Below, one piece after another: positions 44,629 to 62,786 of a stretch of DNA of 64,000 nt. The stretch's first letter is position 1. Every line of letters starts with the position of its first letter. Source of the stretch: Lewinellaceae bacterium (GTDB lineage: Bacteria; Bacteroidota; Bacteroidia; Chitinophagales; Saprospiraceae). The translations under genes were made by a program, and so were the position numbers. Location of the stretch: assembly GCA_016710765.1 (NCBI GenBank), contig JADJUJ010000024.1, forward strand, positions 2,919 to 66,918. Direction: 5' to 3'. The notes under the pieces are model-generated. The model did not search any database. It was not told the origin of the DNA and was given only the letters and a program-made list of their open reading frames with translations.

Positions 44629-44718
44629 TTATCGAAGGCAGCCCTGCAGGGGTAGTTTATGGTCGGCGCAGAAGTAGGGATTTTCTCCTTACATTTATCC
44701 GAATCAACTTTTCCAGCA

Positions 44719-47700
44719 ATGAAAATTCAATCCACCCGCCTGCACGTTCTTTGTCTCTTTTTGTTGCTCAATATCTGGTTGCCCGAAGCCCAGAGCCAGT
44801 GTACCTTCACCGAAGTTACCGTCAATTCCACTACGGTAAACTACGGCGATGAAATGAGTTGGGAACTGCACGACAGCACCGGTACCCTGGTAGCCAACTG
44901 GCAGGGCCAGAACAACAACCAAAGTGAAACGCAGGTACTTTGCCTGCCCGATGGCTGTTATACCCTCACAGCGCTCGACAGCTATGGTGACGGCTGGAAT
45001 GGTGGGACCGTCTCGATGACATGGAATACTGGCGCACAGAATTTTAGCCTGCCCGACGGCGCGCTGCAATACTATTATTTTGGTGTAAATGCGGGTAATT
45101 GCACGCCACAAATCCCTGGTTGTACCGACCCATCTGCCTTCAATTACAATCCGCAGGCGACCATTGACGACGGTTCCTGTCAGATGCTTAGCGATGTAGC
45201 CGCTGCCCAGATTTTTGACACCATCATTTATTCCGGACCAAAGGACAACCGCATCAACTGGGTGATTCAAAACCGCAGCACGGGTAACCCGAACAACGAT
45301 TTTCAGGGCGCCGCCGATTTGCGCAGCGACCTGGAACAAAGCCTGATTCCCGCCTTTACCCTCAACGATCCAGGCGCTAAGGTTCCCTATGCACAGTACC
45401 GGAATTTTTTCAACCTCTACGCCGCCTGGTGGCCCGATGCACCCAGTGAAGAAACCTGGTGGAGTTTTAGCCTGATTCAACAATTGCGCAATGAAATTTT
45501 TCTCCCCTGGGGCAACAACGAAACAGGCTGGGTTACCTGGTTTTCTACCATAAAATACGGAGGCGGCGGCGGCGCAGGGCTCAACCGCGATGCCAGGGTA
45601 GGGGACGGAAAAATGTATGGTACCGATTTTGAAACCCTGCTCCATGAATTTGGCCATACCATGCCCGGACTCCTCGACGAGTACACTTCCAGCGGCGAAT
45701 GGTCGGGCAACAAATGCTTTGAAACGCCCAATACCACCGGATTTACCATAAAAGACAGCATCCCCTGGCGCAAATGGATCCCCGATAACGTTCCCCTGCC
45801 TACGCCTTATGATGGCAACTACGACGATGTGGTGGCAGCATTCGAGGGCGGGCTCACCAACTACTTCGGCTGCCACAGGCCCACGGCAAAAGGCTGCTAC
45901 ATGGGGGCTGGCGGCTTTGGCGAAGGTTACGGACAGGACCTGTGCGCACCTTGTGCACAGCGGGTTATTTGCATGTTGTACAAATACGTGAATGTGATTG
46001 AAAACCCCATTCCTGCCAATACGAACCTTGCGGTTAATGGCCCCGAAACCATTACGTTTTCCGCAGATGTGGTGGCGCCAGAGCCAAATACGCAGGTATA
46101 CGCCTGGTATTTGAATGGCAAAAAGATTGCAGAGAACACCACCTCGGTGGAAGTCGCCTTTGGCAGCTGTGATGCCTATCAGTTGAAATTCACGGTGACC
46201 GATACCACACCGCTGGTGCGTTATGATGAAAAATTTGACGCGATTTACCCCAAGCCGTACCGGGAACACATTTGGACTATTGACCAAACGACTGTCAGCA
46301 GTTACAACCTGCAAACTACCGCGCAGGTGACCAGTGCCGATTGCACTGGCGCCGACAATGCCATCGTGACGCTGAGCCCCACGGGCGGACAAGCGCCCTA
46401 CGAATTTTGGCTGGATGGCCAACAAGTACCGAATCCGGTGAATAACCTGGCGCCAGGTATGTACGGTATTGTGGTGGTGGATGCGCAAAATTGCGCGGTG
46501 GAAAAAACCGTTCAGGCCACACGCGATGCCCTGCTCGATCTGTCCATTTGTTCGGTAGACAATGGCAATTGGGATGTTGCAGTGCAATCAAAAAATTACG
46601 ATGTGGGTACGCTCGATTTACTTTGGTCGACGGGTGGTACAGGCCCATCGCTTTTGGGTGTTCCTGATGGGAATTATACCCTGACGGCAAATGCCAATGG
46701 CTGTGTGGTTACACAGGATTTTAGTTTGGAGAGTACCCCGCAACCGCTTATGGCAACGGAGCGTTTCTTCCCTTCGGAAATGGGTAAATCTACCGGCACG
46801 TTCTACGTAGAAGCCAGCGGTGGTGTACAGCCCTATCAAATTGAATGGTACGATCGGTTGATGGCGGATCAAACCAATGCAGATCCCGCACAGATCCTGT
46901 TCAGTGGCACCACCTGGGGGCATTTGCCAGAAATGGCTTTTGATAACAACCTGAACACCAAGTGGTTGCACGCCGTGAACAGCAATGCCTGGATAGGGTA
47001 TCAAATTTTCACAGCCCACTACTATTGCCTACTACACCATCACCTCTGCGGATGATGTGCCCGAGCGCGACCCGCAAAGCTGGATCATGCAGGGCTCCAA
47101 CGATGGGAACAACTGGGTTCCACTGGATACCCGCAGCAACGAGGACTTTCCGAATCGCTTCCAACAGCGTGCTTTTCCCATTTCCAGTCCGGCGCCATAC
47201 ACACACTACCGGCTTTTTGTCACGGAGAGTGCTGGCGCCAATGAAATTCAATTGGAGGAAGTGGAGCTGGTAGGCACCGACCCCAACGGCGCTTTTTTCC
47301 ACAATGTGGCGTTTGACGGCCATTTTAGTCGCACCAAACTGGCGCCTGGCGATTACCGCTACGAAATCAGCGATGCCTCGGCCACCTGTGCTTCAGCGGA
47401 GCACAACGTGGCAGCTTTTGTACCCATTACCGCCAGCGGATTAAAAGTAGTGCAGGATGGAAACTGTGGTGTAGCCGTTGAAACACCCATTGCCGGTTAC
47501 GATTATTACTGGCTTTCTGATGAAATAGGGACAGCCCTTTTGGGCGAAGGCGCCAGTTTCCAGCCACCACACGCGGGTAATTTTTATGTTACGGCGGCAC
47601 CTTCGGGCACCGGGCAATGGAGCAGTAACCGCAGAGGGTTTGCTGTTACCATGCCCGCCACGCCGGAAGTGACGGATCTGGGGAATGGACAACTGGCGGT

Positions 47701-48767
47701 GGTTAACCCTGCGCCGGAAACCGCCTATTTGTGGTACGACAGCGACAATTGTGGTGTGCCCTTGCAGGTGGGCAATACTTACAATCCGGGCCCACAGGCG
47801 GCAGATTTTTATATTGCCGCCATCAGTACCATCGATTTTCCCGATCCGATTGACCCGGCCACCATTCCAGGGCTTTTGTTGCGCATGGATGCCGCCGACC
47901 TCAATGGCGATGGCATGATTGACGATCCTGCCCCGCCCACCAGTTCGGTGCTCGACTGGTATTTTCCCACCGGAAATAAATGGGCCGAGAACAACTGGTT
48001 TGCCTACCGCAGCAATTACCAGAATGGATTGGGCATTGCAGATTGGGCCACCCTATGGCTGCAGCGCATCCAAAATGCCCAAAACAATTTTCAAACCGTG
48101 ATCATGGCTTATCAGGAAAACGAATTGTCCTGGGATAAAACGGCACCCTTTGATGCCCTTTCTACCACCATGCCCCGGCATTCGGATGCTTCGGCTGTTT
48201 TCAAACGATGCGCCCGCTTCCACATTAAATGGTGTTACCTACCTGAACGGGCAAGAAGTTGACCCGCTTACAACCAGCAATCCCATGGCATTTTGTGTGC
48301 TGGGCTCGGTGTTTACCGCGCCGTCCACGGCCTCTATTTTTTATACCGATACCCATTGGGAAGGAAAGGTGGGCGAATTACTCTTTTTCGACCACGATTT
48401 ATCAGATGCGCAAATGAAGGGCGTATCGGAATTCCTACGGCAGAAATGGATCAGTACAGCCGACCTGATGAGCCCGAAGCTTAAATACCATTGGCCTGGG
48501 ACCACCCGGCTGGAAGAAGATGTTCCCGAAAATACCTTTGTGACAATGTATCCAAATCCCGTGAGCGGCACTTTGTTTTTAGAGCGGTCAGACTCAGAGG
48601 CGTTGCAAGTTGAGATATACAATGCCGAAGGAAAGCTGTTTAGGTCCAAAATTTGGAATGGAACGAAACAATTAGAAGATGTGTCCGATTTACCTTCGGG
48701 CTTTTACTGGATCAGGTTTCGCGGCGTTGGTGGGATGGAGCAAGTGGCGCGATTTGTTAAAATGTAG
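44719..48767 (+). CDS. Very large secreted M64-like zinc metalloprotease with a discoidin (F5/8 type C) domain and a T9SS C-terminal sorting domain; frame broken twice
   Basis: Signal peptide MKIQSTRLHVLCLFLLLNIWLPEAQS. LLHEFGHTMPGLLDEY. ..ERDPQSWIMQGSNDGNNW... The C-terminal domain reads MYPNPVSGTLFLE...LPSGFYWIRF. ORFs 44659-47055, 47057-48262 and 48150-48767. Confidence 0.75.
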
Positions 48768-48916
48768 GGTGGAGGTTTATGGTGCCCGTGGTCCTTGTTA
48801 TTTTTCCAATCGGCCACTCTGGCTTTAACCGGCCAGATGCTGAAAATATAGTTTAAATCCGAACATGTTCTAAACTGGACTTTAGCCATATCGAAACTAG
48901 AATCAATCTTATTTTT

Positions 48917-49594
48917 TTACAACGGCAAAGCTCCATTCCACAATGCCATACCAAAATGAAAACCGATGGTAAAGTCTGGAAATCGGCTCCTGCCTGGGGC
49001 GATTTCAAAATTGATGAATTCCCAATCTAAAAACTCTGTTGCATCTGCTGGAAGATCCCTGCTCACCTGGTAGTACAAAGCACCGAGATACAGATAGGGT
49101 TCGAAAAACACTTGCTTCTTTTTCCCGGCAAAAAATTGCCATCCACATCGGCCACCTATGCCAAGGGCGCGTACGTGCCGTTCGATGGGGAGTATTTCGA
49201 GATACTGACCGCCTTGCCGCAACACCTGCTCCAGACTGACGTGCCGAATGTTGTTGTATTTTCCTTCTGCGCCAAAATGAAACACATAACGCTTGGAAGT
49301 TATGCCATAATACTTGAAGCCGGTTCGAAGGCGGAGCCCCTGGTAACTTTCTCCTTGGGTTCGCGCCAATACGCTGGAACCCAAAAATGCGCCTACACCA
49401 AGATCAATGCTCGCTTTAGGCCCCAATCGTACATCGCTGGCAAAGGCAACCGCTTCCTTGAGGGGGTTGATCAGGGAAATAATGTTGGTCTTAAAAGTCA
49501 GTTTCGGCACCAAGGGCCCCGGATGCGCCAACGTATCGGATTGTGCACACAGGCCGCGCGCACTTAACAGGAGCAGGACAAATAGTACGCGCAT
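48917..49594 (-). CDS. Putative outer-membrane beta-barrel protein
   Basis: Signal peptide MRVLFVLLLLSARGLCAQ, alternating beta-strand-like pattern, and an aromatic C-terminal region. Confidence 0.5.
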   Translation of the reverse strand: MRVLFVLLLLSARGLCAQSDTLAHPGPLVPKLTFKTNIISLINPLKEAVAFASDVRLGPKASIDLGVGAFLGSSVLARTQGESYQGLRLRTGFKYYGITSKRYVFHFGAEGKYNNIRHVSLEQVLRQGGQYLEILPIERHVRALGIGGRCGWQFFAGKKKQVFFEPYLYLGALYYQVSRDLPADATEFLDWEFINFEIAPGRSRFPDFTIGFHFGMALWNGALPL

Positions 49595-50366: not shown

Positions 50367-50909
50367 TTAGTTAAGGGTCCTGCAACTGACGGTTTCGAGT
50401 TCCGCCGTTTCCCAACCGACGACTGCGCCCCGGGATTCATCCACACACTCAAAAATGCCGTTGTACAAGGGCGGGGAGAGCAGGGGCGAAAACACATCGG
50501 TTTGCCGGTTGAGCAGCTTGACCTGGAGTATGTTGCTGATGTCGATGGTCAGAAGATCCTTCCAACTGTCGGCATACAGCCGTGTTCCCGAAACGGTAAA
50601 ATCACTGATGGCGGGAATTTTGATAAAGGTGAGGTAGTCGAAATTCAAGCTGTCTTTTACAAAGTAAACGTGGATGCCTTTTTTCTGCTCCAGGATAAAA
50701 AACAGTGAATCTTGTAAAAAGATGGTGCCGGTTTGTTCCAGGGCTTGTTCGGGCAGGTTGCCAACGTTTGACAATTCGGATACGGGCAGGTAAACCGGGC
50801 GCAATCCGGTGCCGCTAAAACCCTCAGCGGGTTCTTTGGTGCAGGCCGCCAGGGAAAGACCCGTGTAAAAAGCCAAGGCAATGTATATCAGGTAGTACGC
50901 CAGTTTCAT
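50367..50909 (-). CDS. Lipoprotein, LVIVD-like N-terminal partner
   Basis: Lipobox LSLAAC. LLTIDISN motif. Co-oriented and nearly abutting the previous gene. Confidence 0.55.
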   Translation of the reverse strand: MKLAYYLIYIALAFYTGLSLAACTKEPAEGFSGTGLRPVYLPVSELSNVGNLPEQALEQTGTIFLQDSLFFILEQKKGIHVYFVKDSLNFDYLTFIKIPAISDFTVSGTRLYADSWKDLLTIDISNILQVKLLNRQTDVFSPLLSPPLYNGIFECVDESRGAVVGWETAELETVSCRTLN

Positions 50910-51076
50910 GGGTAGGGTTGGTCAGGAATGGAATCAGGCAACTAAGGTAAGGCGTGGAACCGAGTGCACGCAGTATTTTAACATTATCGAAACAAAATCA
51001 ATTGCCAGCCATGGGGCAATCGCTGAAAGACAGCAAATGTTTGACAAATAACAGGATTATCAAAAAACAGGCCTAT

Positions 51077-51195
51077 ATTAGCCATCACACTACAGGACAT
51101 TTTATAAAATAGCAGCCCTAATGTGCCTAATGTGGCTTGTCTCATGTGCCCTAATGTGGTTAATTCAAAAAATGTCCAGTAGTGTGATTAGCCAT
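51077..51195. promoter_or_regulatory. Inverted repeat bracketing three CCTAATGTG repeats, 32 nt upstream of the CIS operon start
   Basis: attagccat-cacactacaggacatttt (51077-51103) pairs with aaaatgtccagtagtgtg-attagccat (51169-51195). The spacer contains cctaatgtg three times. Confidence 0.5.
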
Positions 51196-51226
51196 AAAGA
51201 CTTTTACAAACAGGCCTTCCCTTTTT

Positions 51227-51784
51227 ATGATACATACTGTGCTTCAGGCGATTACGAAAGATTTAAATGCTTTTTTGCAAAACAGGTTTAAGCTGAACGA
51301 AGACATGGTTTCATTGTCCTCATTGGTAGCACTTGATGGTTCGGTTTCTATTCCTTCTGAAAATAAAATTGTGTGCACCTTATTAAACATAGAGCAGGAA
51401 AGAATGAATCTCAATGCGCCCCATAATAAGCAGGCGCTGGTGAATCAACCCATTAATTTGAACTTGTATGTCCTTTTTTCTGCTTATTTCAGCGCAAACA
51501 ACTACATTGAAGCATTAAAAGCCATCTCTTATACCATTGGCTTTTTCCAGGGCAAACAAGTGTTTACCAATGCCAATACTGCTAATTTTCCAGCAACGAT
51601 TGATAAGATAGTTGTTGAAATGGTAAACATGGACATGAAAGATATCAGTAATTTTTGGACAGCTCTCGGAGCAAATCACCTGCCTTGTGTGCTTTTCCGG
51701 TTGCGGATGATATCTATAACAGCGGATGTAATTATTGAAGAGTACACACTTATACGGGGAATACAATCGGACTCCGGCAGTTGA
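51227..51784 (+). CDS. DUF4255 (Pvc16/Afp16 N-terminal-like) protein of contractile injection systems
   Basis: The N-terminus MIHTVLQAITKDLNAFLQNRFKLNEDMVSLSSLV..DGS...ENKIV.TLLNIEQE matches DUF4255 as I recall it. First gene of the cluster. Confidence 0.7.
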   Translation: MIHTVLQAITKDLNAFLQNRFKLNEDMVSLSSLVALDGSVSIPSENKIVCTLLNIEQERMNLNAPHNKQALVNQPINLNLYVLFSAYFSANNYIEALKAISYTIGFFQGKQVFTNANTANFPATIDKIVVEMVNMDMKDISNFWTALGANHLPCVLFRLRMISITADVIIEEYTLIRGIQSDSGS

Positions 51785-51800
51785 CTAACTTAATAAATCA

Positions 51801-52685
51801 ATGCAAAAACGCTATTATCAACTGCTTACATTATCGCTCGAACATGCTTTTTATAAGGATGGGGTAGCAATCGATTTGTTGGTAGAACCAACCCCCGACA
51901 CCAAAGTGTTGATGCAAAAAAACGACCTGTTCTGGCACTCTCAAGTCAACAGTTACACGCTCCTGTTTGGTTGTGAAGAAGGCCTTTCTCCAGCTGTCGC
52001 TTTGGGTGATGAGCCCCTGCAACTCCAGTTTATCTTGAAAAGCAATTCCCCATTCTTTTTCAATTTTACAGATCTTCCATTCCAACTTATCGGGCAGGAG
52101 GATGCCTGGTTCTTTTTTGAAAACAAAACGCCATTGGAACCCGGGCTGGAAACGCCTGTACGGCTAACCGAAGAAAGCACCGTAGGCTCGGCTGATATTG
52201 TACCGGCGGCGGGCCCCAGGTCTGCTTACAGATTGCAGCCAGGAGATCTGGGCATTATTCAATTCGAAATAGGAGAACAGACGGAGGTCATGTTGCCGTT
52301 TCCAGATCCAGAATCGCCAGCTTCCTATGCTGCAACGTCTTTTACGATATTATTCCAATCCAGAGACGCGTATTGGCGGTATTATTTAATAAATAGCAGT
52401 CAACTACGTTTCGATAATTTGACGGTGACTGATGGCAGAAATGATCTCAATTTTTTGAAAGGAGATCCTGTTCTAGTAGGAGGGGCTGCGGAAATGGCTA
52501 TTCCTATGTGGTCAGAAACGCCATTGCCAATGTTGGAAGTACCCTTTCTTCGGCCAAAACTCAAACTAAATGGTGGAGCAGGGGAAATCACCCTGGACCT
52601 GCCTACCCCCGATTTCCGCCGGCTCGTACCAGAAGGGTCCGATGAAAACACAGTATTTTATGCAGACATGTATATATATTTATAA
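51801..52685 (+). CDS. Hypothetical protein (294 aa) between the DUF4255 and sheath genes
   Basis: Tightly spaced and co-oriented with its neighbours. No motif recognised. Confidence 0.5.
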   Translation: MQKRYYQLLTLSLEHAFYKDGVAIDLLVEPTPDTKVLMQKNDLFWHSQVNSYTLLFGCEEGLSPAVALGDEPLQLQFILKSNSPFFFNFTDLPFQLIGQEDAWFFFENKTPLEPGLETPVRLTEESTVGSADIVPAAGPRSAYRLQPGDLGIIQFEIGEQTEVMLPFPDPESPASYAATSFTILFQSRDAYWRYYLINSSQLRFDNLTVTDGRNDLNFLKGDPVLVGGAAEMAIPMWSETPLPMLEVPFLRPKLKLNGGAGEITLDLPTPDFRRLVPEGSDENTVFYADMYIYL

Positions 52686-52702
52686 ATCAACTATTTTATA
52701 GT

Positions 52703-54247
52703 ATGGCAAAAGTACTTGCAACACCAGGGGTTTACATCGAGGAGAAGAGCGCTTTCCTGAATTCCGCCGTACCGGTGGCCACCGCAGTACCCGCTTTTCT
52801 GGGGTATACGGAAAAAGCCATTTGGAACAATAAGGACATTACGAACACGCCAACCCGGATATCCTCTTTTGGCGAGTACTTGTTGTATTTCGGCGGCGCC
52901 CCAAAAACAACGTATTCCTTTGAGAATGTCAGGACCACCGATCCCAAGCAGATTTACAAGTTAGAACCCAAGGATAAGCGTTTCCTTTTGTTCCATTGTA
53001 TGAAGCATTTTTTTGCCAATGGCGGCTCGGATTGCTACATCGTTTCCATTGGGAATTACGATGCCAAAATGACCATCGATGACTTCGATTCCGAAGCAGT
53101 AGATGCCAATGGCGAAAGTAAACAAAAAGGCCTCAAAACACTCCTGAAGGAAACGGAGCCAACGATGGTGGTCGCTCCGGATGCCGTTTTATTAGAAGCA
53201 TCTACTTTTGCCGATCTGCAAACCCGGATCTTGAACCATTGTGGTGCAATAATGCGCAGCCGCATTGCCATTCTTGACGTGTACGATGGCTATAAAGCAC
53301 GAAGTCTAGATCCTCAAAGTGATGTAATCACGAAATTCCGGGAGGGTTTGCAAGGAAATGCCAATTTGCAATGGGGCGCTGCTTATTATCCCTGGGTTCA
53401 TACCAATATTACGAGCGCGGATGCTGTAAACTTTACAAACATCGATGCTGTGCAGCGTGCAGTCTTGGGCAAAACATTGCTCGAGGATGTAGATGCCGCG
53501 GTGGCTGAGCAAACGATGGACCCAAAAAGGGCCGATCAGATTAAAGTGGAAGTGGCCAAACTAACACCGGATCTAACAGACCCGGATGGAATCAGCAACC
53601 TGCACCAAACCTTGTGGGCCATCAGCCCGCTGTATAAATCCATTATGGATACCCTTCGGGAACAAATGAACCTGCTTCCCCCATCGGCCGGTATGGCTGG
53701 CCTTTATACGATGGTGGATAATTCCGTTGGGGTGTTTCAGTCCCCGGCCAACATCAGTTTTGGCGCTGTGGTGCGCCCGGCAGTTAACCTAACCAACGAC
53801 GAACAGGAAGATCTTAACCTCCCCCTCAACGGCATGGCCGTCAATGCCATCCGCACCTTTCTTGGAAAGGGCGTATTGGTTTGGGGCGCGCGAACACTTG
53901 ATGGCAACAGCCAGGACTGGCGCTACATCAGTGTGCGGCGGACAGTTATTTACATTGAACAATCCGTAAAACAGGCCATTGAGCCATTTGTGTTTGCACC
54001 GAATACGGCCAGTACCTGGACCAATGTTAAAGCGTTGATTACCAATTTTTTAACCAATGTTTGGGCATCAGGCGCCCTGGCTGGAGCCTCTGCCGATGAT
54101 GCTTTTAGTGTCGACGTTGGTTTGGGTACCACCATGACACCGATCGATATCCTCGATGGAATAATGAGAGTATCTGTGAAAATCGCCATAACCCGGCCAG
54201 CCGAATTTATTGTGATTACGTTCCAGCAAAAAATGCAACAGGCTTAG
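52703..54247 (+). CDS. Phage-type contractile tail sheath protein
   Basis: N-terminus ..TPGVYIEEKS..VATAVPAFLGYT, AAYYPW, NAIRTF.GKGVLVWGARTL. 514 aa. Confidence 0.85.
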   Translation: MAKVLATPGVYIEEKSAFLNSAVPVATAVPAFLGYTEKAIWNNKDITNTPTRISSFGEYLLYFGGAPKTTYSFENVRTTDPKQIYKLEPKDKRFLLFHCMKHFFANGGSDCYIVSIGNYDAKMTIDDFDSEAVDANGESKQKGLKTLLKETEPTMVVAPDAVLLEASTFADLQTRILNHCGAIMRSRIAILDVYDGYKARSLDPQSDVITKFREGLQGNANLQWGAAYYPWVHTNITSADAVNFTNIDAVQRAVLGKTLLEDVDAAVAEQTMDPKRADQIKVEVAKLTPDLTDPDGISNLHQTLWAISPLYKSIMDTLREQMNLLPPSAGMAGLYTMVDNSVGVFQSPANISFGAVVRPAVNLTNDEQEDLNLPLNGMAVNAIRTFLGKGVLVWGARTLDGNSQDWRYISVRRTVIYIEQSVKQAIEPFVFAPNTASTWTNVKALITNFLTNVWASGALAGASADDAFSVDVGLGTTMTPIDILDGIMRVSVKIAITRPAEFIVITFQQKMQQA

Positions 54248-54275
54248 TACCTTTTTGGGCCCAGCAGAAAATCCC

Positions 54276-54738
54276 GAACACGTTCTCTAAACTGGATTTT
54301 AGCCAAATGAAACCATTTATGTGGCTTGATTATCAATGGTTTAATATGGCATTGATGAAATTATGAACATACCTCAAAATTAAGGGTGTGCAATATTTAT
54401 TTTAAGTACGATCGCGGCGCTACGGGCTTGGCCTTTTACAAATCCCGATTTTGCGTTGATGGAGGTGGATGAAGCAAAAAACTGTGTGAGCCAACCAGAT
54501 AGAAGGGGGCGCAGACCCGACTAGTTCGATGGGCGAGTTTTTTTTTGCGCCGCCGCAATCAACAAGCAAAATCGTAGGATTTGTAAAGAGCCATGGGCTT
54601 TTTTGGTTACTTTTTTGGCCACAAAAAAGTGACAAATCGATCTTTTTATTCCAAAAGTTAACGAACCTGATGCATTTTTGCCGTTGTAGAAAAATAAGAT
54701 TGTTTCTTGTTTCGAAATGGTTAAAGTCCAGCTAAAAC
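54276..54738. repeat. Repeat-rich insert in the sheath-tube intergenic region (nested inverted repeats)
   Basis: Outer pair: ctaaactggattttagcc (54287-54304) with ggttaaagtccagctaaaac (54719-54738), about 15/20. Inner pair: tacaaatcccgattttgcgttgat (54437-54460) with atcaacaagcaaaatcgtaggatttgta (54558-54585). Confidence 0.6.
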
Positions 54739-54786
54739 GGAATGCGATCCAATCATTTCCATCACCAATAAAACAACAATAAAATC

Positions 54787-55236
54787 ATGGCAGAAGAAAA
54801 ACAGGAATCAACTTGGCCCGTTCCATTATTTCATTTTAATATAAAAATTGGCGACAAAAGTGAGATTGCATTCCAGGAGGTATCAGGCCTGGATACAGAA
54901 TACGATGTCATTGAATATCGCGCAGGCAACAGCGCTGAATTTTCTGTAGTTAAAATGCCGGGCTTGAAAAAGGTATCCGATATTACGTTGAAAAAAGGCT
55001 TGTTTAAAGACGACACTGCGTTGTTTGATTATTTTGCCAGTGTAAAAATGAACACCGTTAAGCGCGAAACTGTGGTAATTACACTGTTGGATGAAGAACA
55101 CAAGCCGTTGTTTGTCTGGACCTTAAACAACGCCTTTCCCATAAAAATGACCGGCACAGAGTTGAATGCTACATCGGGAGAAGTGGCAATAGAGGAATTG
55201 GTACTGGCGCACGAAGGATTGACGATGGCTACATAA
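54787..55236 (+). CDS. Tail tube protein (T4 gp19 / Afp1-like)
   Basis: 149 aa. ..FHFNIKIGDKSEIAFQEVSGLDTEYDVIEYR.GN.. is typical of the conserved phage tail tube family. Confidence 0.85.
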   Translation: MAEEKQESTWPVPLFHFNIKIGDKSEIAFQEVSGLDTEYDVIEYRAGNSAEFSVVKMPGLKKVSDITLKKGLFKDDTALFDYFASVKMNTVKRETVVITLLDEEHKPLFVWTLNNAFPIKMTGTELNATSGEVAIEELVLAHEGLTMAT

Positions 55237-55294
55237 GTACTGTTTTAAAAACAAGCCAGATTGAAACCATATAATTTTATCACAAATCATACTC

Positions 55295-56901
55295 ATGGCC
55301 AAGCTCCCGCACAAGCAACAGATATCATCCATGCCAAAATCTCCTGCTCAGGAATATCCAGATATAATAGCCGTAAAAGTATTTGTAAATGGCAAAGTAA
55401 TTAATGATACAGATCAAATTACCCAAATAAGTGTGACCAAGGCGGTCAATCAAATCGGTAAGGCAGAAATTCGTGTTGCGCTGGACCTCGGAGCTGAAAC
55501 TGATCAGGTATTTGAACCACTTGATGCCGATCATTTTTTACCCGGTTACTCAATCGACATTCAGGTCGGATCTGTTTTAAGAACCAACAGTATTTTTAAA
55601 GGCATCATTACCAGTCTTGGCGCAAGTGCTACCAGCCAAGGAAAGGTAGAAATGTTGGTGGGATGTTCTGAGCAGACTGTTGTCATGACCAACGACTGTG
55701 GGAATGCCATTTTCGACAACAAAAAAGACAGTGAAATTTTTGCCGCTATAATTGCCGATTGTGCGCTTTCCAGCGAACTGGATCCTACTGATTTTGTGCA
55801 CAGCCAATTGGTCCGGTATCAATCCAGCAGCTGGGATTTTTTGCTTGCCAGGGCAGCCGCCAACGGCATGTGGGTATATGCTGATGGGGATAAGGTTTTT
55901 GTGAAACGGCCCATGCCTTCAGCCGGGGCCCCTCCAAGTGTTAAGATTGAATTTGGTAGGGATACCACCGAATTTAATTTTTCCCTGGACACCGCGGTGC
56001 AGGGAACGCTTACAACCTTGGGGAGTTCCACCATAAAATTGAATACGCCTGTTGAGCTGTCGGGATTTGGCGCCCGATTTAATGGCCTTGCCCTTGTTAC
56101 AGCAGTCCATCATAGTATCGACGCGGGACAATGGAAAACAACACTGCAATTCGGGAATGCAACCGATGGGGTGGTGGTGAGACAGCCAACATCTTCGCTG
56201 CCGAACAGCGAAATGGTACCACCAATCAATGGTTTGCAAAACGGAAAAGTATTGAAAATTGACGGCGACCCGGATCACAGTTTCCGCATTCAGGTTTTGG
56301 TGCCTGCGATCGATCCTGTAGTTCCGATTTGGGCACGAATGGCGCAGTTTTATGCAACAAGTCAACAAGGCCTGTTTTTTATGCCTGAAATTAATGACGA
56401 AGTGGTAATGGGTTTTCTCAATGAAGATCCAAGGTATCCGATTGTTTTGGGATCGATGTATAGTTCCAAAATAAAAGCGGCTTATGCAGCAGACCCAAAG
56501 AATGCCATTAAAGCCATAACGACAAAAATGGCCTTAAAATTGAGTTTGACGATCAACAGAAGATCATTACTGTGGAAACTCCCGCTGGCAATTCATTTGT
56601 ACTGTCGGATAAAGACAAGTCGGTTGTTGCACGAGATCAAAATGGGAACCAACTTGAAATGATCAATGCAGGAATTGTACTGAATAGTGCCAAAGACATT
56701 GAGATAAAGGCAACGGGTAAAATTTCCATTCAAGCAAACCAGTCTGTCAACATGAAATCGTCTGGCGGTGATGTCACATTGGAGGGTATGAACCTAACGG
56801 CAAAGGCGCAAATGAATTTTAGTGCCCAAGGCGCTGTGGAAGCCGAGATAAAATCATCAGCCCAGACTTCCGTGAAGGGGGCAATTGTGATGATCAATTG
56901 A
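55295..56901 (+). CDS. VgrG-like spike (gpD/gp5-type) protein; frame broken once
   Basis: FFMPEINDEVVMGFLNEDPRYPIVLGSMYS and a C-terminal beta-helix-like repeat. ORFs 55295-56662 and 56572-56901 join as ..TTKNGLKIEFDDQQKIITVETPAGN.. if the A5 run 56524-56528 is A6. Confidence 0.8.
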
Positions 56902-56941
56902 GTAAACTATGCCCTTATTTATTAACAAAAACAAGATAACC

Positions 56942-57241
56942 ATGCCTCCAGCAGCCAGATTAACCGATATGCATACCTGTCCAATGGTTACACCAGGCCT
57001 ACCCCCCATTCCGCATGTAGGAGGGCCTATTGTTGGCCCTGGCGTTCCAACGGTGCTAATTGGCGGTATGCCGGCCGCAGTAGTAGGTGATATGTGTGTA
57101 TGTGTCGGCCCTCCGGATGCCATTGTAACGGGTTCCGCTACGGTGCTCATTGGTGGAAAGCCAGCCGCCAGAATGGGTGATGTAACTGCCCACGGTGGCA
57201 GTATCGTACTCGGGATTCCAAACGTGCTTATTGGTGGCTGA
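56942..57241 (+). CDS. PAAR-domain spike-tip protein
   Basis: MPPAARLTDMHTCP..., GGMPAAVVGDMCVC, GGKPAARMGD..HGG: three PAAR-like repeats. Confidence 0.9.
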   Translation: MPPAARLTDMHTCPMVTPGLPPIPHVGGPIVGPGVPTVLIGGMPAAVVGDMCVCVGPPDAIVTGSATVLIGGKPAARMGDVTAHGGSIVLGIPNVLIGG

Positions 57242-57299
57242 AGGCAGGAACCTGATCCTTAAAAAAGCATTTTCCAAGCAATTATTAATAGAAGCCAAC

Positions 57300-58106
57300 A
57301 TGAAGGAACCCAAATTCAGCATTCAATTCCCGGCCCAAAAAATAGCAACACCATTGCAATGGGACGACCTTGTTGTCGACACCCACTGCATGAATGCAAT
57401 CATAGAAATCAAAACCTGGATTGAAAACGAGCAAACGATACTTACCGATTGGAAACTCAACAAAAGGTTGAAACCTGGTTTCCGTGCGCTTTTCTACGGT
57501 CCGGAAGGCACAGGAAAAACATTGGCAGCATCATTGCTGGGTCAAGCAACTGCCCGAAAAGTATACCGGGTGGATTTATCGGTAGGAATTTCGAAGTACA
57601 TCGGAGAGACCGAGAAAAACCTGGCTACCGTATTTGATCGAGCCCAAAAAAACAATTGGATCTTATTTTTTGACGAAGCCGATGCTCTTTTTGGAAAACG
57701 CACTGTTGTCAAGGACGCTCACGATCGGTACGCAAACCAAGAGGTAGCTTATTTGCTGCAAAGGGTTGAAGATTATCCGGGTGTGGTAATATTTGCTTCT
57801 AATCTGAAGGCCAATATTGACGAAGCTTTTTCCAGGCGTTTTCAATCCATGATTCACTTCTCCATGCCCAATGCGGAACAACGTTTAATGCTTTGGAAAA
57901 AAACTTTTTCCGGTGCTATGCAGGTTGCGCCGGATCTCGATTGGGAGAAAATTGCCGTCTCCTATGAAATTTCTGGAGGTGATATGCTTGATGTCTTGCA
58001 ATACTGTGCACTGACAGCGGTTCAACGTAAGCCACCCGTTGTACAATCTCGCGATATACTTGCCGGGATCCGGCGGGTAATGCAGAAGCACGGCAAGATA
58101 CGCTAG
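57300..58106 (+). CDS. Short single-domain AAA+ ATPase (Afp15-like role)
   Basis: Walker A is FYGPEGTGKT and Walker B is ILFFDEADALF. ..VIFASN..IDEAFSRRF. About 268 aa. Confidence 0.8.
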   Translation: MKEPKFSIQFPAQKIATPLQWDDLVVDTHCMNAIIEIKTWIENEQTILTDWKLNKRLKPGFRALFYGPEGTGKTLAASLLGQATARKVYRVDLSVGISKYIGETEKNLATVFDRAQKNNWILFFDEADALFGKRTVVKDAHDRYANQEVAYLLQRVEDYPGVVIFASNLKANIDEAFSRRFQSMIHFSMPNAEQRLMLWKKTFSGAMQVAPDLDWEKIAVSYEISGGDMLDVLQYCALTAVQRKPPVVQSRDILAGIRRVMQKHGKIR

Positions 58107-58115
58107 TAGATGACC

Positions 58116-58224
58116 AATTTAGTTTTTGTAATGGTTCACTTTGTGGCGCGGAAATTTTGCGCAGCAAAATATCCGCGCGTTTCTGCTGCGGGAAACTATT
58201 TTTTTGCGCAGCAAAAACTAAATT
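58116..58224. repeat. 13-bp inverted repeat enclosing two TTTTGCGCAGCAAAA copies
   Basis: aatttagtttttg (58116-58128) pairs with caaaaactaaatt (58212-58224). Lies in the convergent gap between the ATPase and the MFS gene. Confidence 0.7.
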
Positions 58225-58251
58225 ACTTTACCACTAGTGCCGGACGCGGCA

Positions 58252-59580
58252 CTAGTCAGCCTTTGTCATCTGCATCTCCAAATCCTCCAGTGAAACACCT
58301 TTCGTTTCCGGCATCATTTTCCACACGAAAATCAGCTGCAACACCATCATAAAGGCAAAGAAGACGAAAACGGGTGCAGCGCCAACTTTGGCGAACAGCC
58401 ACGGTACCGCAGAAGGAATGGCCGCCGCCAGCACCCAATGAACAGAACTGCCGAAGGATTGTCCGCTGGCCCGCAGGTGGTTGGGGAAAATTTCAGAAAT
58501 GAATACCCAGATAACCGTTCCCTGCCCAATAGCATGCGCAGCAATAAACATAAACAGGAAAATCGGCACAGCCATGCCCTGCCAGTTCATCCAGAATGCC
58601 ATGGCCACCAGCGAAAGCGAAATGATGTAGCCCACGGAGCCAATGTACAGGAGTTGCTTGCGGCCCAACTTGTCAATCAGCGACAAGCCAATCAAGGTGA
58701 AAATCATATTGGTGATGCCCACCCCGATGCTGCTCAGCAAAGCAGCACTGTCTTCCAGTCCTGCAATTTTAAAAATTCGCGGAGCATAGTATAAAAAAGC
58801 GTTTATGCCCGAAAATTGGTTGAAAAAAGCCACCAAAAAGGCCAACATCAAAGGGAACTGAAATGCTTTGTTGAAGATGGATTCTTTTTTTCCCAACAAC
58901 GCCTGATCGGATAATATTCTGTCTATTTCAACCTCCGGGTCAACTGTCGGATCAATCAGTCGCATGGTCGCTGCGGCTGCAACGCGATCCTTTTTCTTTA
59001 CCAATAGCCACCGCGGACTCTCCGGCACCGTAAATACCATCAGGGTGTACATAAAAGCGGGAATTGCTTCCACCCCAATCATCCAACGCCAGCCGTTTTC
59101 CCCCAATCCACTCAGCAGGTAATTCGACACAAATGCGATCAGGATACCGAAAACGATGTTGAACTGGTACAGGGCTACCAGCCGGCCGCGATTGTGGGCA
59201 GGTGCTATTTCCGATACATAAGCCGGCGCGGCAATGGTAGAGGCGCCTACTGCAAGCCCGCCGACAAACCGGAAAAAGGCAAATACCCAGGGATCGTTTG
59301 CCAGGGCAGAACCGACAGCAGATATAAAATAAAACACGCCAATCCACAGCAGTGTTTTCTTCCGGCCAAGCTTGTCGGTGGGGATGCCGCCCAGGATCGC
59401 GCCTAAGACGGTGCCCCAGAGGGCAGAAGCGATGATCACAACGCCATGAAAGACTTCACCGCGCGGCCACAACTGCTGCAGCGACAAATCGGCGCCCGAT
59501 ATCACCACTGTGTCAAATCCAAAAAGAAATCCGGCCAGTGCTACGGTGATCGACCAAAAGAAAATTTTGCGGTGGTTCAT
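58252..59580 (-). CDS. MFS sugar porter family transporter
   Basis: 12-TM pattern with GFDTVVISGA, DKLGRKKT, PESPRWL and ..PETKG..LE... Confidence 0.85.
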   Translation of the reverse strand: MNHRKIFFWSITVALAGFLFGFDTVVISGADLSLQQLWPRGEVFHGVVIIASALWGTVLGAILGGIPTDKLGRKKTLLWIGVFYFISAVGSALANDPWVFAFFRFVGGLAVGASTIAAPAYVSEIAPAHNRGRLVALYQFNIVFGILIAFVSNYLLSGLGENGWRWMIGVEAIPAFMYTLMVFTVPESPRWLLVKKKDRVAAAATMRLIDPTVDPEVEIDRILSDQALLGKKESIFNKAFQFPLMLAFLVAFFNQFSGINAFLYYAPRIFKIAGLEDSAALLSSIGVGITNMIFTLIGLSLIDKLGRKQLLYIGSVGYIISLSLVAMAFWMNWQGMAVPIFLFMFIAAHAIGQGTVIWVFISEIFPNHLRASGQSFGSSVHWVLAAAIPSAVPWLFAKVGAAPVFVFFAFMMVLQLIFVWKMMPETKGVSLEDLEMQMTKAD

Positions 59581-61781: not shown

Positions 61782-62782
61782 TCAATGATGACCATAAACA
61801 CGCGTTTTAGTAAATTTATTGATCAGCGGCGCAACGGCATTCATCAGCAAAATGGCATACATCACGCCTTCCGGGAGCCCGCCCCAAACCCTGATGACGA
61901 CAACAAGGGCCCCAATACCTGCACCATAAATCAAAATTCCTTTGGGTGTTAGCGGCGACGTGACCAAATCAGTTGCCATGAACACCCCACCCAGCAGCAA
62001 GCCTCCTGCCATCAACATAAACTGTGGGGGAGGGTAGTGGCCAGGGTTGATGAAGAACAAAAGTGTAGAGAGCAGTGCTACGGTACCGAAAAGGGACAGC
62101 GGTATCCGCCAATTGATCAGCTGCCGATAAACCAAATAAAGGCCAATAACAAAAATAAGCAAGGCACTCGTTTCGCCGATGCAACCACTGGTGTTGCCCA
62201 GGAGGAGGTCTTGCCATGGGGTCATGATATGACTGAACTTCATGCTGGCAAGTGGTGTGGCCCCGCTGATGGCATCAATGGATTGGGTTTTCATAAAGGG
62301 AAGCGCAAGATTCCCGCCCCTGGCCGAAAAATAGAGCCCGTCGGGGTTCGACCAGGTGGTGATCGCACCCGGAAAAGCCGCTTGTAAAAGGCTCTGCCGA
62401 GTAAGGCAGGATTAAAGATATTCTGTCCCAGCCCTCCCCAAAGGGCCTTCCCCAGGCCAATGGCCACCATTCCTCCGATAAAAGTCATCCACAAAGGGAA
62501 GCCCGGCGGCAAGGTGAATGCCAGCAGGATTCCGGTAATTAGTGCAGAACCATCTTTCAAACCGGTTCCCCGAACAGGGCTCTTGTCGAACAGCCACTCC
62601 GCAAACAGGCATGCCACGATGCTTGTTGCCGTCACCAGCAAAGCGCTCAGACCAAAATAGTAGAAACCTGCCATTAGAATTGGCGCCATGCTGAATACCA
62701 CTTCCCACATGATACGAGGCGTACTCGCATCATCATGTAAAAAAGGTGCCGTGGATATGATGGTTTTGTTCGCGTCGGACAT
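61782..62782 (-). CDS. rnfD: Rnf complex subunit D; frame broken once
   Basis: Polytopic, with FMN site DAISGATPLA. ORFs 62291-62809 and 61782-62294. The start MSDANK at 62782 avoids overlap with rnfC. Confidence 0.8.
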
Positions 62783-62786
62783 GCTT

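What the first reader, a model, noticed from the sequence alone, without database searches (positions are those of the whole stretch)
51227..58106. Stripped-down contractile injection system cluster without a recognisable baseplate wedge, tape measure or cargo
Seen in the sequence: seven co-directional genes. They are DUF4255/Afp16-like, a 294-aa unknown, a phage-type sheath, a gp19-like tube, a VgrG-like spike, PAAR and a short AAA+ ATPase. Established knowledge: extracellular CIS (Afp, PVC, MAC, AlgoCIS) and T6SS subtype iv loci also encode gp25-like, gp6/gpJ-like and gp7/gpI-like baseplate wedge proteins, a tape measure or length determinant, tube-initiator/LysM proteins, and usually tail fibres and payloads. 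I can recognise none of these here. Upstream are opposite-strand lipoprotein genes. Downstream are a convergent sugar transporter and the rnf operon. Inference: the locus may be a decayed remnant, one half of a split locus, or a minimal sheath-tube-spike module that uses unrecognised parts. The 294-aa ORF is the only candidate for such a part. Repeat-rich DNA lies on both sides (51077-51195 and 58116-58224) and inside the locus (54276-54738).
Basis: partly seen in the sequence, partly recalled or inferred. Interest (0 to 1): 0.75.

Follow-up and report, generated by a model that had tools for sequence, protein, structure and literature searches.

The report
Baseplate-less partial contractile injection system locus
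This is a cut-down copy of a phage-tail-like injection system in a wastewater Saprospiraceae/Lewinellaceae bacterium: it keeps the cap, sheath, tube and spike genes, has lost the baseplate genes by deletion, and belongs to a recurring, selectively maintained class of such partial gene sets.

Summary
Window 51227-58106 carries co-directional genes for a DUF4255 cap, a 294-aa protein, a sheath, a gp19 tube, a VgrG, a PAAR and a short AAA+ ATPase. No other CIS gene lies anywhere in the 64 kb.

There are three corrections.
- The 294-aa "unknown" is the Cis16B/Alg16B cap adaptor, so it is not a hidden baseplate part.
- VgrG is split by a one-base loss in an A5 run. At least six unrelated genes in the window are split the same way, so this is probably an assembly error.
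- The ATPase lacks the ~180 N-terminal residues found in every complete homologue. Its homology starts right after the PAAR stop, which marks a deletion scar.

The closest full loci (sheath 69% identical) show which genes are missing. One block is Cis6/Cis7/GH18-like/Cis5, between tube and spike. The other is gp25/Cis11/Cis12/TMP, after PAAR.

Similar baseplate-less sets and orphan sheath genes recur in Saprospiria and are under purifying selection (dN/dS 0.07-0.34). Two isolates that carry them also have a complete eCIS locus on record.

Best reading: a deletion-derived satellite module that depends on a complete locus elsewhere. The main rival is an inert remnant. Whether this MAG holds a complete locus could not be tested.

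The parts
51084..51188 (.). Palindromic element in the upstream intergenic region: 28-nt inverted arms flank two GCCCTAATGTG-type direct repeats. It may be a regulatory or terminator element. Its function is unknown.
   Evidence: (I1, D14) and the sequence. It is nearly identical in the conspecific contig L086.
51227..51784 (+). Cis16A-type cap (tail terminator) protein, 185 aa, DUF4255/Pvc16_N.
   Evidence: Pfam Pvc16_N, E 2.8e-26. PDB hits to 9r9n_B (1.5e-19), 7b5i_AA and the AlgoCIS cap 7adz_0A (1e-13). It is 59% identical to the L004 and L087 orthologues. pN/pS is 0.14 against conspecific L086, from only 3 differences.
51801..52685 (+). Cis16B/Alg16B-type cap adaptor, 294 aa.
   Evidence: phmmer to the AlgoCIS cap adaptor 7adz_1A gives E 9e-7. 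An 8-sequence profile gives 7adz_1A 1.1e-19, SalCis16b 9r9n_C 1.7e-17 and Anabaena All3326 7b5i_AB 1.1e-11. Its position between the cap and sheath genes is the same in dozens of related loci. The role of the adaptor is described in PMC8894135.
52703..54247 (+). Contractile sheath (Cis2), 514 aa, intact.
   Evidence: Pfam sheath domains. It is 69% identical over its full length to the L004 sheath. pN/pS is 0.22 against conspecific L086.
54286..54731 (.). Element of about 450 bp with terminal inverted repeats, MITE-like and highly self-complementary, inserted between sheath and tube.
   Evidence: The terminal motif TCTAAACTGGAyTTTAgCCA... is also found at 48869-48929. The fold z-score is -3.35. 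The sheath-tube gap is 543 bp here, against a median of about 60 bp and a next-largest gap of 273 bp in 66 loci. The short-read conspecific contig L086 ends inside the element at 54441.
54787..55236 (+). Inner tube protein (Cis1, gp19 family), 149 aa, intact.
   Evidence: Pfam Phage_T4_gp19, E 5e-44. It is 78% identical to the first tube gene of L004 and only 32% to the second, Cis5-like one.
55295..56901 (+). VgrG-type spike (Cis8). It is read as two ORFs because one base is missing in the A5 run 56524-56528. The repaired product is 535 aa. This is a short form lacking about 72 residues of the gp27-like part.
   Evidence: adding one A gives a continuous ORF, 41% identical end to end to the 513-aa VgrG of L088. 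Solved spikes align as query 27-236 to chain 16-222 and query 233-535 to chain 295-597 (9rce_F).
56909..57241 (+). PAAR spike tip (Cis10). The likely true start is at 56942, giving 99 aa.
   Evidence: Pfam PAAR_motif, E 1.2e-25. It is 86-90% identical to the L004 and L087 PAAR over 99 aa.
57252..58106 (+). 5'-truncated Cis15-type AAA+ ATPase. The ORF runs from GTG 57195, with the first ATG at 57297. The Walker A, Walker B and arginine motifs are present. The N-terminal ~180 residues are absent.
   Evidence: Pfam AAA. The fragment aligns only to residues 157-451 and 175-452 of the 454-460-aa homologues, starting just after the PAAR stop. Among 80 metagenomic homologue loci, every ORF not cut by a contig end extends about 170-275 codons upstream in frame, with a first ATG 119-260 (mostly 170-210) codons upstream. 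Full-length examples are 451-456 aa with the AAA domain at 247-377.
58103..58237 (.). Palindromic element in the convergent intergenic region, with 26-nt inverted arms and 2x TTTTGCGCAGCAAAA. It is probably a bidirectional terminator region.
   Evidence: (I5, D18) and the sequence.

Best explanation
The locus is a deletion-derived, baseplate-less satellite copy of a clade Ib contractile injection system. That clade is the AlgoCIS / MAC / T6SS-iv group, which Saprospiraceae use for contact-dependent killing.

The locus still encodes the parts that polymerise or are ejected: the cap (Cis16A), the cap adaptor (Cis16B), the sheath, the tube, a short-form VgrG spike and the PAAR tip.

Two blocks present in its closest complete relatives are missing. 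One is Cis6/DUF5908, Cis7/CIS_tube, a ~400-540-aa protein, a GH18-like protein, an 81-aa protein and the Cis5 tube adaptor, between tube and spike. The other is gp25, the 1280-aa Cis11, a 266-aa protein, the 954-aa Cis12-like protein, the tape measure and the first ~180 codons of the ATPase, after PAAR.

It cannot nucleate a tube or sheath on its own. Its products would have to use a baseplate and assembly factors encoded by a complete locus elsewhere in the genome. The truncated ATPase is a scar and probably has no role.

Shown: gene identities, orthology, the missing blocks, the ATPase truncation, and recurrence with purifying selection of such modules in relatives.

Inferred: that this particular copy is still used, and that a complete locus exists in this genome.
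For: Orthology and missing blocks:
- The locus matches complete loci L004 and L087/L170 gene by gene: cap 59%, adaptor 32-35%, sheath 69%, tube 78%, VgrG 35-56%, PAAR 86-90%.
- No other CIS gene lies in the 64 kb.

ATPase truncation:
- None of the 80 homologue loci has a short form.

Integrity of the retained genes:
- The other six genes are full length.
- The VgrG frameshift sits in a homopolymer. The same window has at least six other split genes: carbamoyltransferase (twice), ApbE, CitMHS, an Ig_7/Por-tail protein and RnfD. Each overlap contains a homopolymer.
- Against a conspecific contig with 96.4% nucleotide identity, pN/pS is 0.14 for the cap, 0.39 for the adaptor and 0.22 for the sheath.

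Recurrence in relatives:
- Of 80 genome loci, 53 are complete-type, 4 are reduced, 2 have sheath plus tube only and 5 (probably 7) are sheath singletons.
- The reduced loci are L014 (Lewinella sp.), L016 (Phaeodactylibacter), L020 (Neolewinella persica) and L031.
- L088 and L171 are orthologous reduced loci in two species with identical flanks. Their dN/dS values are 0.14 for the sheath, 0.12 for the tube, 0.20 for VgrG and 0.07 for PAAR, at dS 0.65-0.92.
- Orphan and reduced-locus sheath pairs have dN/dS of 0.11-0.34.

Short VgrG:
- Four of five complete reduced-locus VgrGs, including this one, are short (518-544 aa).
- All 48 full-locus VgrGs are 556-641 aa.
- The short forms lack the same region. 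This argues that the reduced state is old.

Co-occurrence with a complete locus:
- Geller et al. 2021 (PMC8213781, supplementary file 4) list an eCIS locus with at least 10 core genes in H. hydrossis DSM 1100 at 703586-735867. The orphan sheath lies at about 5.50 Mb.
- They also list one in Lewinella persica DSM 23188, scaffold_4.5, at 89418-130329. Reduced module L020 lies at about 136-144 kb of the same scaffold.

Precedents:
- Dispersed but functional genes of this CIS clade are known from Cardinium, with 16 genes in five regions (PMC3486910).
- The complete system is used as T6SS-iv for ixotrophy in Aureispira.
Against: - I could not show that this MAG has a complete locus. The genome is not in the genome collection. 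No second sheath from its accession block turned up. No gp25 labelled Lewinellaceae bacterium was among the 120 best hits.
- The exact arrangement PAAR then truncated ATPase was seen nowhere else.
- A truncated gene and a ~450-bp insertion between sheath and tube are typical of decay.
- The selection evidence for this locus covers only three genes, and it is unknown whether the compared strain shares the deletions.
- The short VgrG lacks part of the gp27-like region. Established structures place that region against the tube initiator, so docking onto a foreign baseplate is not assured.
Confidence: 0.5

Rival explanations
1. The locus is an inert remnant. A once-complete CIS locus was inactivated by two deletions and a mobile-element insertion. 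The remaining ORFs are simply not yet degraded.
For: - The ATPase is truncated and abuts PAAR.
- A ~450-bp inverted-repeat element lies between sheath and tube, giving the largest gap of 66 loci.
- VgrG is frameshifted as assembled.
- All tube-initiator, wedge and tape-measure genes are absent.
- This exact architecture is unique among about 170 loci examined.
- Aureispira switches its T6SS-iv off by IS insertion.
Against: - Six genes are full length and highly conserved. PAAR is 86-90% and the tube 78% identical to functional-type orthologues.
- pN/pS is below 0.4 for the three genes that could be tested.
- The frameshift is probably one of many assembly indels.
- The short-VgrG state is shared with stably maintained reduced loci, which implies long persistence without ORF decay.
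Confidence: 0.33
2. The locus is an autonomous minimal contractile or filament-forming device. Cap, adaptor, sheath, tube, short spike and PAAR would assemble without a gp25/gp6/gp7 wedge.
For: - The four-gene core of sheath, tube, short VgrG and PAAR is kept under purifying selection in L088 and L171, with only unrelated housekeeping genes around it.
- Short VgrG is correlated with loss of Cis5 and Cis7.
- The Saprospira sheath protein SCFP forms cytoplasmic fibrils (cited in PMC3486910).
Against: - In every solved CIS, sheath and tube polymerisation starts on the wedge and the tube initiators (AFP, PVC, AlgoCIS, tCIS; PMC8894135).
- The one unassigned ORF is the cap adaptor, so no candidate substitute gene remains in the locus.
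- Isolates with partial sets have complete loci on record.
Confidence: 0.06
3. The missing genes are an assembly artefact. They would have been lost through mis-joins in a long-read metagenome assembly.
For: - The assembly clearly carries many homopolymer indels.
- The locus contains repeat elements.
- Paralogous CIS loci in one genome could mislead an assembler.
Against: - An independent short-read contig (L086) confirms the left flank, cap, adaptor, sheath and the start of the inserted element.
- Both junctions fall in unique sequence: a 58-bp tube-VgrG spacer, and about 10 nt after the PAAR stop leading into the middle of the ATPase gene.
- tube-VgrG adjacency and a breakpoint just after PAAR are seen in independently assembled genomes, including an isolate.
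Confidence: 0.04

Closest known systems
Clade Ib contractile injection systems: AlgoCIS (Algoriphagus), MAC, T6SS-iv of Amoebophilus and Aureispira, Anabaena tCIS and the Salmonella salamae CIS
   Same: The cap (Cis16A), the clade-typical cap adaptor (Cis16B), the sheath, the gp19 tube, the VgrG and the PAAR all match solved or characterised members. The sheath groups with Saprospiraceae loci, including those of Aureispira and Saprospira grandis at 52-54% identity.
   Different: There is no Cis5, Cis6 or Cis7 tube initiator, no gp25/Cis11/Cis12 wedge, no tape measure, no fibres and no cargo. The ATPase is truncated. The VgrG lacks about 72 residues that are present in all solved spikes of the clade.
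Reduced CIS modules in related Saprospiria found here: L088/L171, L014, L016, L020 (Neolewinella persica DSM 23188) and L031
   Same: They share the core order (cap/adaptor)-sheath-(tube)-VgrG-PAAR with no wedge genes. Most have a short VgrG, and their genes are under purifying selection.
   Different: Three of them (L014, L020, L088) end with a 172-186-aa ORF matching only the C-terminal third of CIS_TMP. The window has a truncated ATPase there instead. The sheath tree places these modules in at least three lineages, so they are not one clade.
Dispersed AFP-like/T6SS-iv genes of Cardinium hertigii
   Same: This is the same CIS clade, with genes spread over separate genome regions while structures are still made (PMC3486910).
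   Different: In Cardinium the full gene set is split into five regions without duplication. Here the set is partial, and in relatives it occurs in addition to a complete locus.
Auxiliary (orphan) hcp-vgrG-PAAR clusters of canonical T6SS
   Same: Both are a satellite set of ejected parts (tube, spike, tip) encoded away from the baseplate and membrane-complex genes. This comparison rests on established knowledge and was not tested here.
   Different: The satellite here also carries its own sheath, cap and cap adaptor. No effector or immunity genes were found.

Membership tests
Clade Ib CIS (eCIS / T6SS-iv) complete locus | Contractile sheath (Cis2) and gp19-type tube (Cis1) | tested here: met
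   Pfam hits. The proteins are 69% and 78% identical to the L004 orthologues.
Clade Ib CIS (eCIS / T6SS-iv) complete locus | Cap Cis16A plus a separate cap adaptor Cis16B, the hallmark of clade Ib described for AlgoCIS | tested here: met
   with matches to 7adz_0A and 7adz_1A. The description is in PMC8894135.
Clade Ib CIS (eCIS / T6SS-iv) complete locus | VgrG spike and PAAR tip | tested here: met
   The VgrG needs a one-base repair and is a short form.
Clade Ib CIS (eCIS / T6SS-iv) complete locus | Baseplate wedge: gp25 (Cis9), gp6-like Cis11 and gp7-like Cis12 | tested here: not met
   tblastn with these proteins from L004, L017, L040, L007 and L084 found no hit in the 64-kb window. Whether they exist elsewhere in the genome could not be tested.
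Clade Ib CIS (eCIS / T6SS-iv) complete locus | Tube initiators and adaptors Cis5, Cis6 (DUF5908) and Cis7 (CIS_tube) | tested here: not met
   No hits in the window. The single tube gene is of the Cis1 type.
Clade Ib CIS (eCIS / T6SS-iv) complete locus | Tape measure protein (CIS_TMP) | tested here: not met
   There is no Pfam or tblastn hit. There is also no room for it: the PAAR stop is at 57241 and ATPase homology starts at 57252.
Clade Ib CIS (eCIS / T6SS-iv) complete locus | Full-length Cis15 AAA+ ATPase of about 450 aa | tested here: not met
   Only the C-terminal ~270-285 residues are present.
Satellite or auxiliary module dependent on a main locus | A complete locus is present elsewhere in the same genome | not testable with these tools
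   The MAG is absent from genome contigs. The indirect searches were inconclusive. The feature is met in two related isolates according to PMC8213781, supplementary file 4.
Satellite or auxiliary module dependent on a main locus | Genes are maintained by purifying selection | tested here: inconclusive
   For this locus only three genes could be tested (pN/pS 0.14-0.39). The result is clear for the analogous modules L088/L171 (dN/dS 0.07-0.20) and for orphan sheaths.
Pseudogenised remnant | Disrupted reading frames beyond what assembly error explains | tested here: inconclusive
   One gene, the ATPase, is truly truncated. The VgrG frameshift cannot be told apart from the at least six homopolymer-associated splits in unrelated genes. 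Reads are needed.

The most novel reading that the evidence does not exclude
Saprospiria may carry a class of selectively maintained modules of sheath, tube, short spike and PAAR, with or without a cap and cap adaptor. These would form a working contractile or filamentous structure without a conventional gp25/gp6/gp7 wedge or tube initiators. In this reading, the in-frame loss of about 72 residues from the gp27-like part of VgrG is the adaptation that lets the spike nucleate the tube directly. The window's locus would be one such module.
Probability: 0.06. Interest if true: 0.85.

Novelty: new variant of a known kind. Interest (0 to 1): 0.45.

Why it matters
Surveys of contractile injection systems keep only loci with many core genes. 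Geller et al., for example, require at least 10, so partial sets like this one are discarded as junk.

The comparison here shows that baseplate-less sheath-tube-spike-tip sets and orphan sheath genes recur in Saprospiria. They are under purifying selection, and in two isolates they sit alongside a complete locus.

If they are used, then a predatory T6SS-iv/eCIS can swap its contractile and ejected parts, not only its spike and effectors as in canonical T6SS. That bears on how these machines diversify and on how they might be re-engineered.

If they are not used, they give a dated series of decay states for a large molecular machine.

For this window specifically, the result removes the suggestion of a hidden new baseplate protein.

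Tried and rejected
- **Exact look-up of the window's sheath.** Finding the source contig by exact look-up of the sheath failed.
- **Genome collection.** The MAG is not in the genome collection. The best hit was 63% identical.
- **Baseplate search with the L004 gp6-like fragment.** It returned only 4 hits because of the word prefilter, so it was useless.
- **gp25 profile search.** None of the 120 best hits was named for this MAG. This does not prove absence.
- **Accession check of ten other sheaths.** None came from the MAG's block MBK855xxxx.
- **Last contig look-up.** That gene belongs to a different organism, about 65% nucleotide identity to the window.
- **Cluster look-ups for PAAR and the ATPase.** Look-ups with guessed starts for PAAR and the ATPase were not in the collection. 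The VgrG N-terminal ORF was found, but only as a single NCBI entry, MBK8558155.1. So there is no second assembly to check the frameshift or the junctions.
- **Rfam scan of 50500-58600.** Only a chance-level snoRNA match was found.
- **Promoter and terminator scan.** Counts were at shuffle level and the consensus does not suit Bacteroidota.
- **Flanking genes.** They are not shared with any related locus.
- **Neighbours of the Haliscomenobacter orphan sheath.** The conserved 352-aa and 704-aa neighbours have no PDB or Pfam match.
- **Structure prediction of the 294-aa ORF.** It was not run.
- **Idea that the three repeat regions are copies of one element.** Rejected, because they share no significant similarity.

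Full report
**Source and observation**

The window comes from a metagenome-assembled genome labelled Lewinellaceae bacterium. Its NCBI proteins are MBK8558151-55, its locus tags are IPL65_215xx, and the contig is 84,614 bp. A conspecific ENA contig names the GTDB species Saprospiraceae M3007 sp016710765.

- DUF4255/Pvc16_N at 51227-51784.
- A 294-aa ORF without Pfam hits at 51801-52685.
- A sheath at 52703-54247.
- A gp19 tube at 54787-55236.
- A VgrG from 55295.
- A PAAR at 56909-57241.
- An AAA+ ORF ending at 58106.

tblastn with every ORF of 13 related loci found no further CIS gene anywhere in the 64 kb. The flanks are as described: small opposite-strand proteins upstream, then a convergent sugar/MFS transporter and rnf genes downstream.

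**The 294-aa ORF is not unknown**

The ORF matches the AlgoCIS cap adaptor (PDB 7adz chain 1A) at E 9e-7 as a single sequence. A profile built from eight homologues taken from related loci gives three hits:
- 7adz_1A at 1.1e-19.
- The Salmonella SalCis16b cap protein, 9r9n_C, at 1.7e-17 over almost its full length.
- Anabaena All3326, 7b5i_AB, at 1.1e-11.

The DUF4255 protein matches the corresponding caps. The pair of a short Cis16A cap and a separate Cis16B adaptor is the arrangement described for clade Ib systems. In those systems the adaptor stabilises the last sheath layer (PMC8894135). So the ORF is a distal-end part and not a baseplate candidate.

**The VgrG frameshift**

VgrG is read as two overlapping ORFs. 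Adding one A to the A5 run at 56524-56528 gives a 535-aa protein. That protein aligns end to end with the 513-aa VgrG of locus L088, including the segment AIKAITTKNGLKIEFDD.

The same window has at least six other genes split in the same way:
- a carbamoyltransferase, in three pieces;
- ApbE;
- a CitMHS transporter;
- an Ig_7/Por-tail protein;
- RnfD.

Each overlap contains a homopolymer. The frameshift is therefore most simply one more assembly indel. Only reads can settle this.

**The ATPase is truncated**

Its homology to the 454-460-aa homologues covers only their residues 157-451 and 175-452. It begins within about 10 nt of the PAAR stop codon.

I checked 80 metagenomic loci holding its closest relatives (51-61% identity). 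In every ORF not cut by a contig end, the reading frame extends about 170-275 codons upstream. The first ATG lies 119-260 codons upstream, mostly 170-210. The ATPase gene is usually preceded by the tape-measure gene and often followed by the cap gene. Full-length examples are 451-456 aa, with the AAA domain at 247-377.

The catalytic motifs of the fragment are intact, but the N-terminal ~180 residues are gone. This is a deletion scar.

**What is missing, judged from the closest complete loci**

Locus L004 has a sheath 69% identical to the window's. Locus L087, extended by L170, has this order:

cap, adaptor, sheath, tube, DUF5908, CIS_tube, a 408-537-aa protein, a GH18-like protein, an 81-aa protein, a second gp19 protein, a VgrG of ~597 aa, PAAR, gp25, a 1280-aa protein, a 266-aa protein, a 954-aa protein, and a 1769-aa CIS_TMP protein.

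The window is orthologous gene by gene: cap 59%, adaptor 32-35%, sheath 69%, tube 78%, VgrG 35-56% and PAAR 86-90%. It lacks two blocks. The first is everything between the first tube gene and VgrG. The second is everything from gp25 to the middle of the ATPase gene.

In addition, a ~450-bp element with terminal inverted repeats sits between sheath and tube. The gap is 543 bp, against a median of about 60 bp and a next-largest gap of 273 bp in 66 loci. Its terminal motif recurs at 48869-48929. A short-read contig of the same species breaks inside the element.

**The reduction is not unique**

Among 80 loci from species-representative genomes holding the closest sheaths:
- 53 are of the complete type.
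- 4 are reduced: sheath-(tube)-VgrG-PAAR without wedge genes. These are Lewinella sp. L014, Phaeodactylibacter L016, Neolewinella persica DSM 23188 L020 and Lewinella sp. L031.
- 2 have only sheath plus tube.
- 5, probably 7, are sheath singletons. One is in the complete genome of Haliscomenobacter hydrossis.
- 16 are cut by contig ends.

A neighbour-joining sheath tree puts the window in a clade that mixes complete, reduced and singleton loci. The tree also shows a separate clade made only of orphan sheaths, so reduction happened several times.

Locus L088 is 410-aa adaptor-like protein, sheath, tube, 513-aa VgrG, PAAR and a 174-aa TMP C-terminal ORF. Locus L171 is sheath, tube, 516-aa VgrG and PAAR. 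The two are orthologous reduced loci in two species, with the same housekeeping flanks.

Their dN/dS values are 0.14 for the sheath, 0.12 for the tube, 0.20 for VgrG and 0.07 for PAAR, at dS 0.65-0.92. The neighbouring housekeeping genes give 0.02-0.04. Orphan and reduced-locus sheath pairs give 0.11-0.34. These partial sets are therefore maintained by selection.

Short VgrG goes with reduction. Four of five complete reduced-locus VgrGs are 518-544 aa, including the window's. All 48 full-locus VgrGs are 556-641 aa. The short forms lack the same region, which corresponds to residues ~223-294 of solved clade Ib spikes.

**Selection on this locus**

The conspecific contig L086 is 96.4% identical in nucleotides to the window. 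Against it, pN/pS is 0.14 for the cap (three differences only), 0.39 for the adaptor and 0.22 for the sheath. A neighbouring gene gives 0.12. The contig does not reach the tube, VgrG, PAAR or ATPase genes, and it is not known whether that strain shares the deletions. The differences are clustered in patches, which suggests recombination.

**Do carriers have a complete locus elsewhere?**

This could not be tested for this MAG. For two isolates it can be read from Geller et al. 2021, whose loci require at least 10 core genes (PMC8213781).
- H. hydrossis DSM 1100 has an eCIS locus at 703586-735867, while its orphan sheath lies near 5.50 Mb.
- Lewinella persica DSM 23188 has a locus at 89418-130329 of scaffold_4.5. 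The reduced module L020 lies at about 136-144 kb of the same scaffold.

In Cardinium, the genes of this CIS clade are spread over five regions and structures are still seen (PMC3486910). In Aureispira, a Saprospiraceae, the complete system is a T6SS-iv that kills prey, corresponds to the classical rhapidosomes, and is switched off by IS insertion (bioRxiv 10.1101/2024.01.29.577165).

**Conclusion**

The locus is a partial member of a known system, and the one unassigned protein is now assigned.

The best-supported reading (about 0.5) is a deletion-derived satellite set of the polymerising and ejected parts. It would depend on a complete locus elsewhere, and the ATPase fragment would be a scar.

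The main rival (about 0.33) is an inert remnant. The truncated gene, the inserted element and the uniqueness of this exact arrangement favour it. An autonomous baseplate-less device (about 0.06) and an assembly artefact (about 0.04) are not excluded but have little support.

The wider pattern was found by following the relatives: recurrent, selected, baseplate-less modules and orphan sheaths in Saprospiria. It is the part that deserves follow-up.

Noticed in passing
window 27626-28637, 29583-30910, 41060-42866, 47057-48767, 61782-62809: Several unrelated genes are split into consecutive overlapping ORFs that match consecutive parts of one Pfam family: ApbE, CitMHS, a carbamoyltransferase (in 3 pieces), an Ig_7/Por_Secre_tail protein and RnfD. 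Each overlap holds a homopolymer. This is the signature of indel errors in a long-read assembly, at about one per 10 kb.
   Followed up: yes
window 51932-52131 and 52932-53531, compared with L086: Differences between the window and a conspecific contig are concentrated in short patches inside the cap adaptor gene and the variable middle of the sheath gene, at up to 18-24 per 100 nt. The flanks and intergenic DNA are nearly identical. This mosaic suggests recombination with a diverged homologue, or diversifying selection on exposed domains.
   Followed up: partly
window 54286-54731 and 48869-48929: A MITE-like element of about 450 bp, with terminal inverted repeats and strong self-complementarity, lies between sheath and tube. 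A 61-bp solo copy of its terminal motif lies 5.4 kb upstream. A short-read assembly of the same species breaks inside the element, so it is probably multi-copy in the genome.
   Followed up: partly
L001 (H. hydrossis), L005/L011, L008, L010, L023, L050, L056, L074, L075: A whole clade of sheath genes occurs as orphans, or in one case with only a tube gene. No other CIS gene lies within 10 kb where the contig allows a view. They are intact and under purifying selection (dN/dS 0.11-0.23). What a lone sheath does is unexplained.
   Followed up: partly
L014 6286-6846, L020 15292-15810, L088 14392-14916: Three reduced loci from different sheath lineages carry, after PAAR, a 172-186-aa ORF matching only positions ~296-463 of the 463-position CIS_TMP profile. 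The shared boundary suggests a functional short tape-measure C-terminal domain and not random deletion products.
   Followed up: partly
L020 7509-8006 (Neolewinella persica): An IS200-like (Y1_Tnp) transposase gene sits directly upstream of the reduced CIS module. That module in turn lies only about 6 kb from the eCIS locus listed by Geller et al. on the same scaffold.
   Followed up: no
L001 6604-9915 and L008 7731-9845, 12049-13101: Proteins of about 704 and 352 aa, with no Pfam or PDB match, are conserved next to the orphan sheath in two Haliscomenobacter genomes.
   Followed up: partly
window 44659-48767: Upstream of the locus lie large genes with SprB repeats, a Peptidase_M64 domain, Ig_7 and a T9SS C-terminal sorting domain. 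These are probable T9SS-secreted surface proteins. In Aureispira, T9SS substrates cooperate with the T6SS-iv in predation.
   Followed up: no
P0132/P0134: In another Saprospiraceae MAG, a related sheath is annotated as two adjacent fragments of 254 and 280 aa. This is probably another assembly frameshift, and a reminder that split CIS genes in such MAGs should not be read as decay.
   Followed up: no
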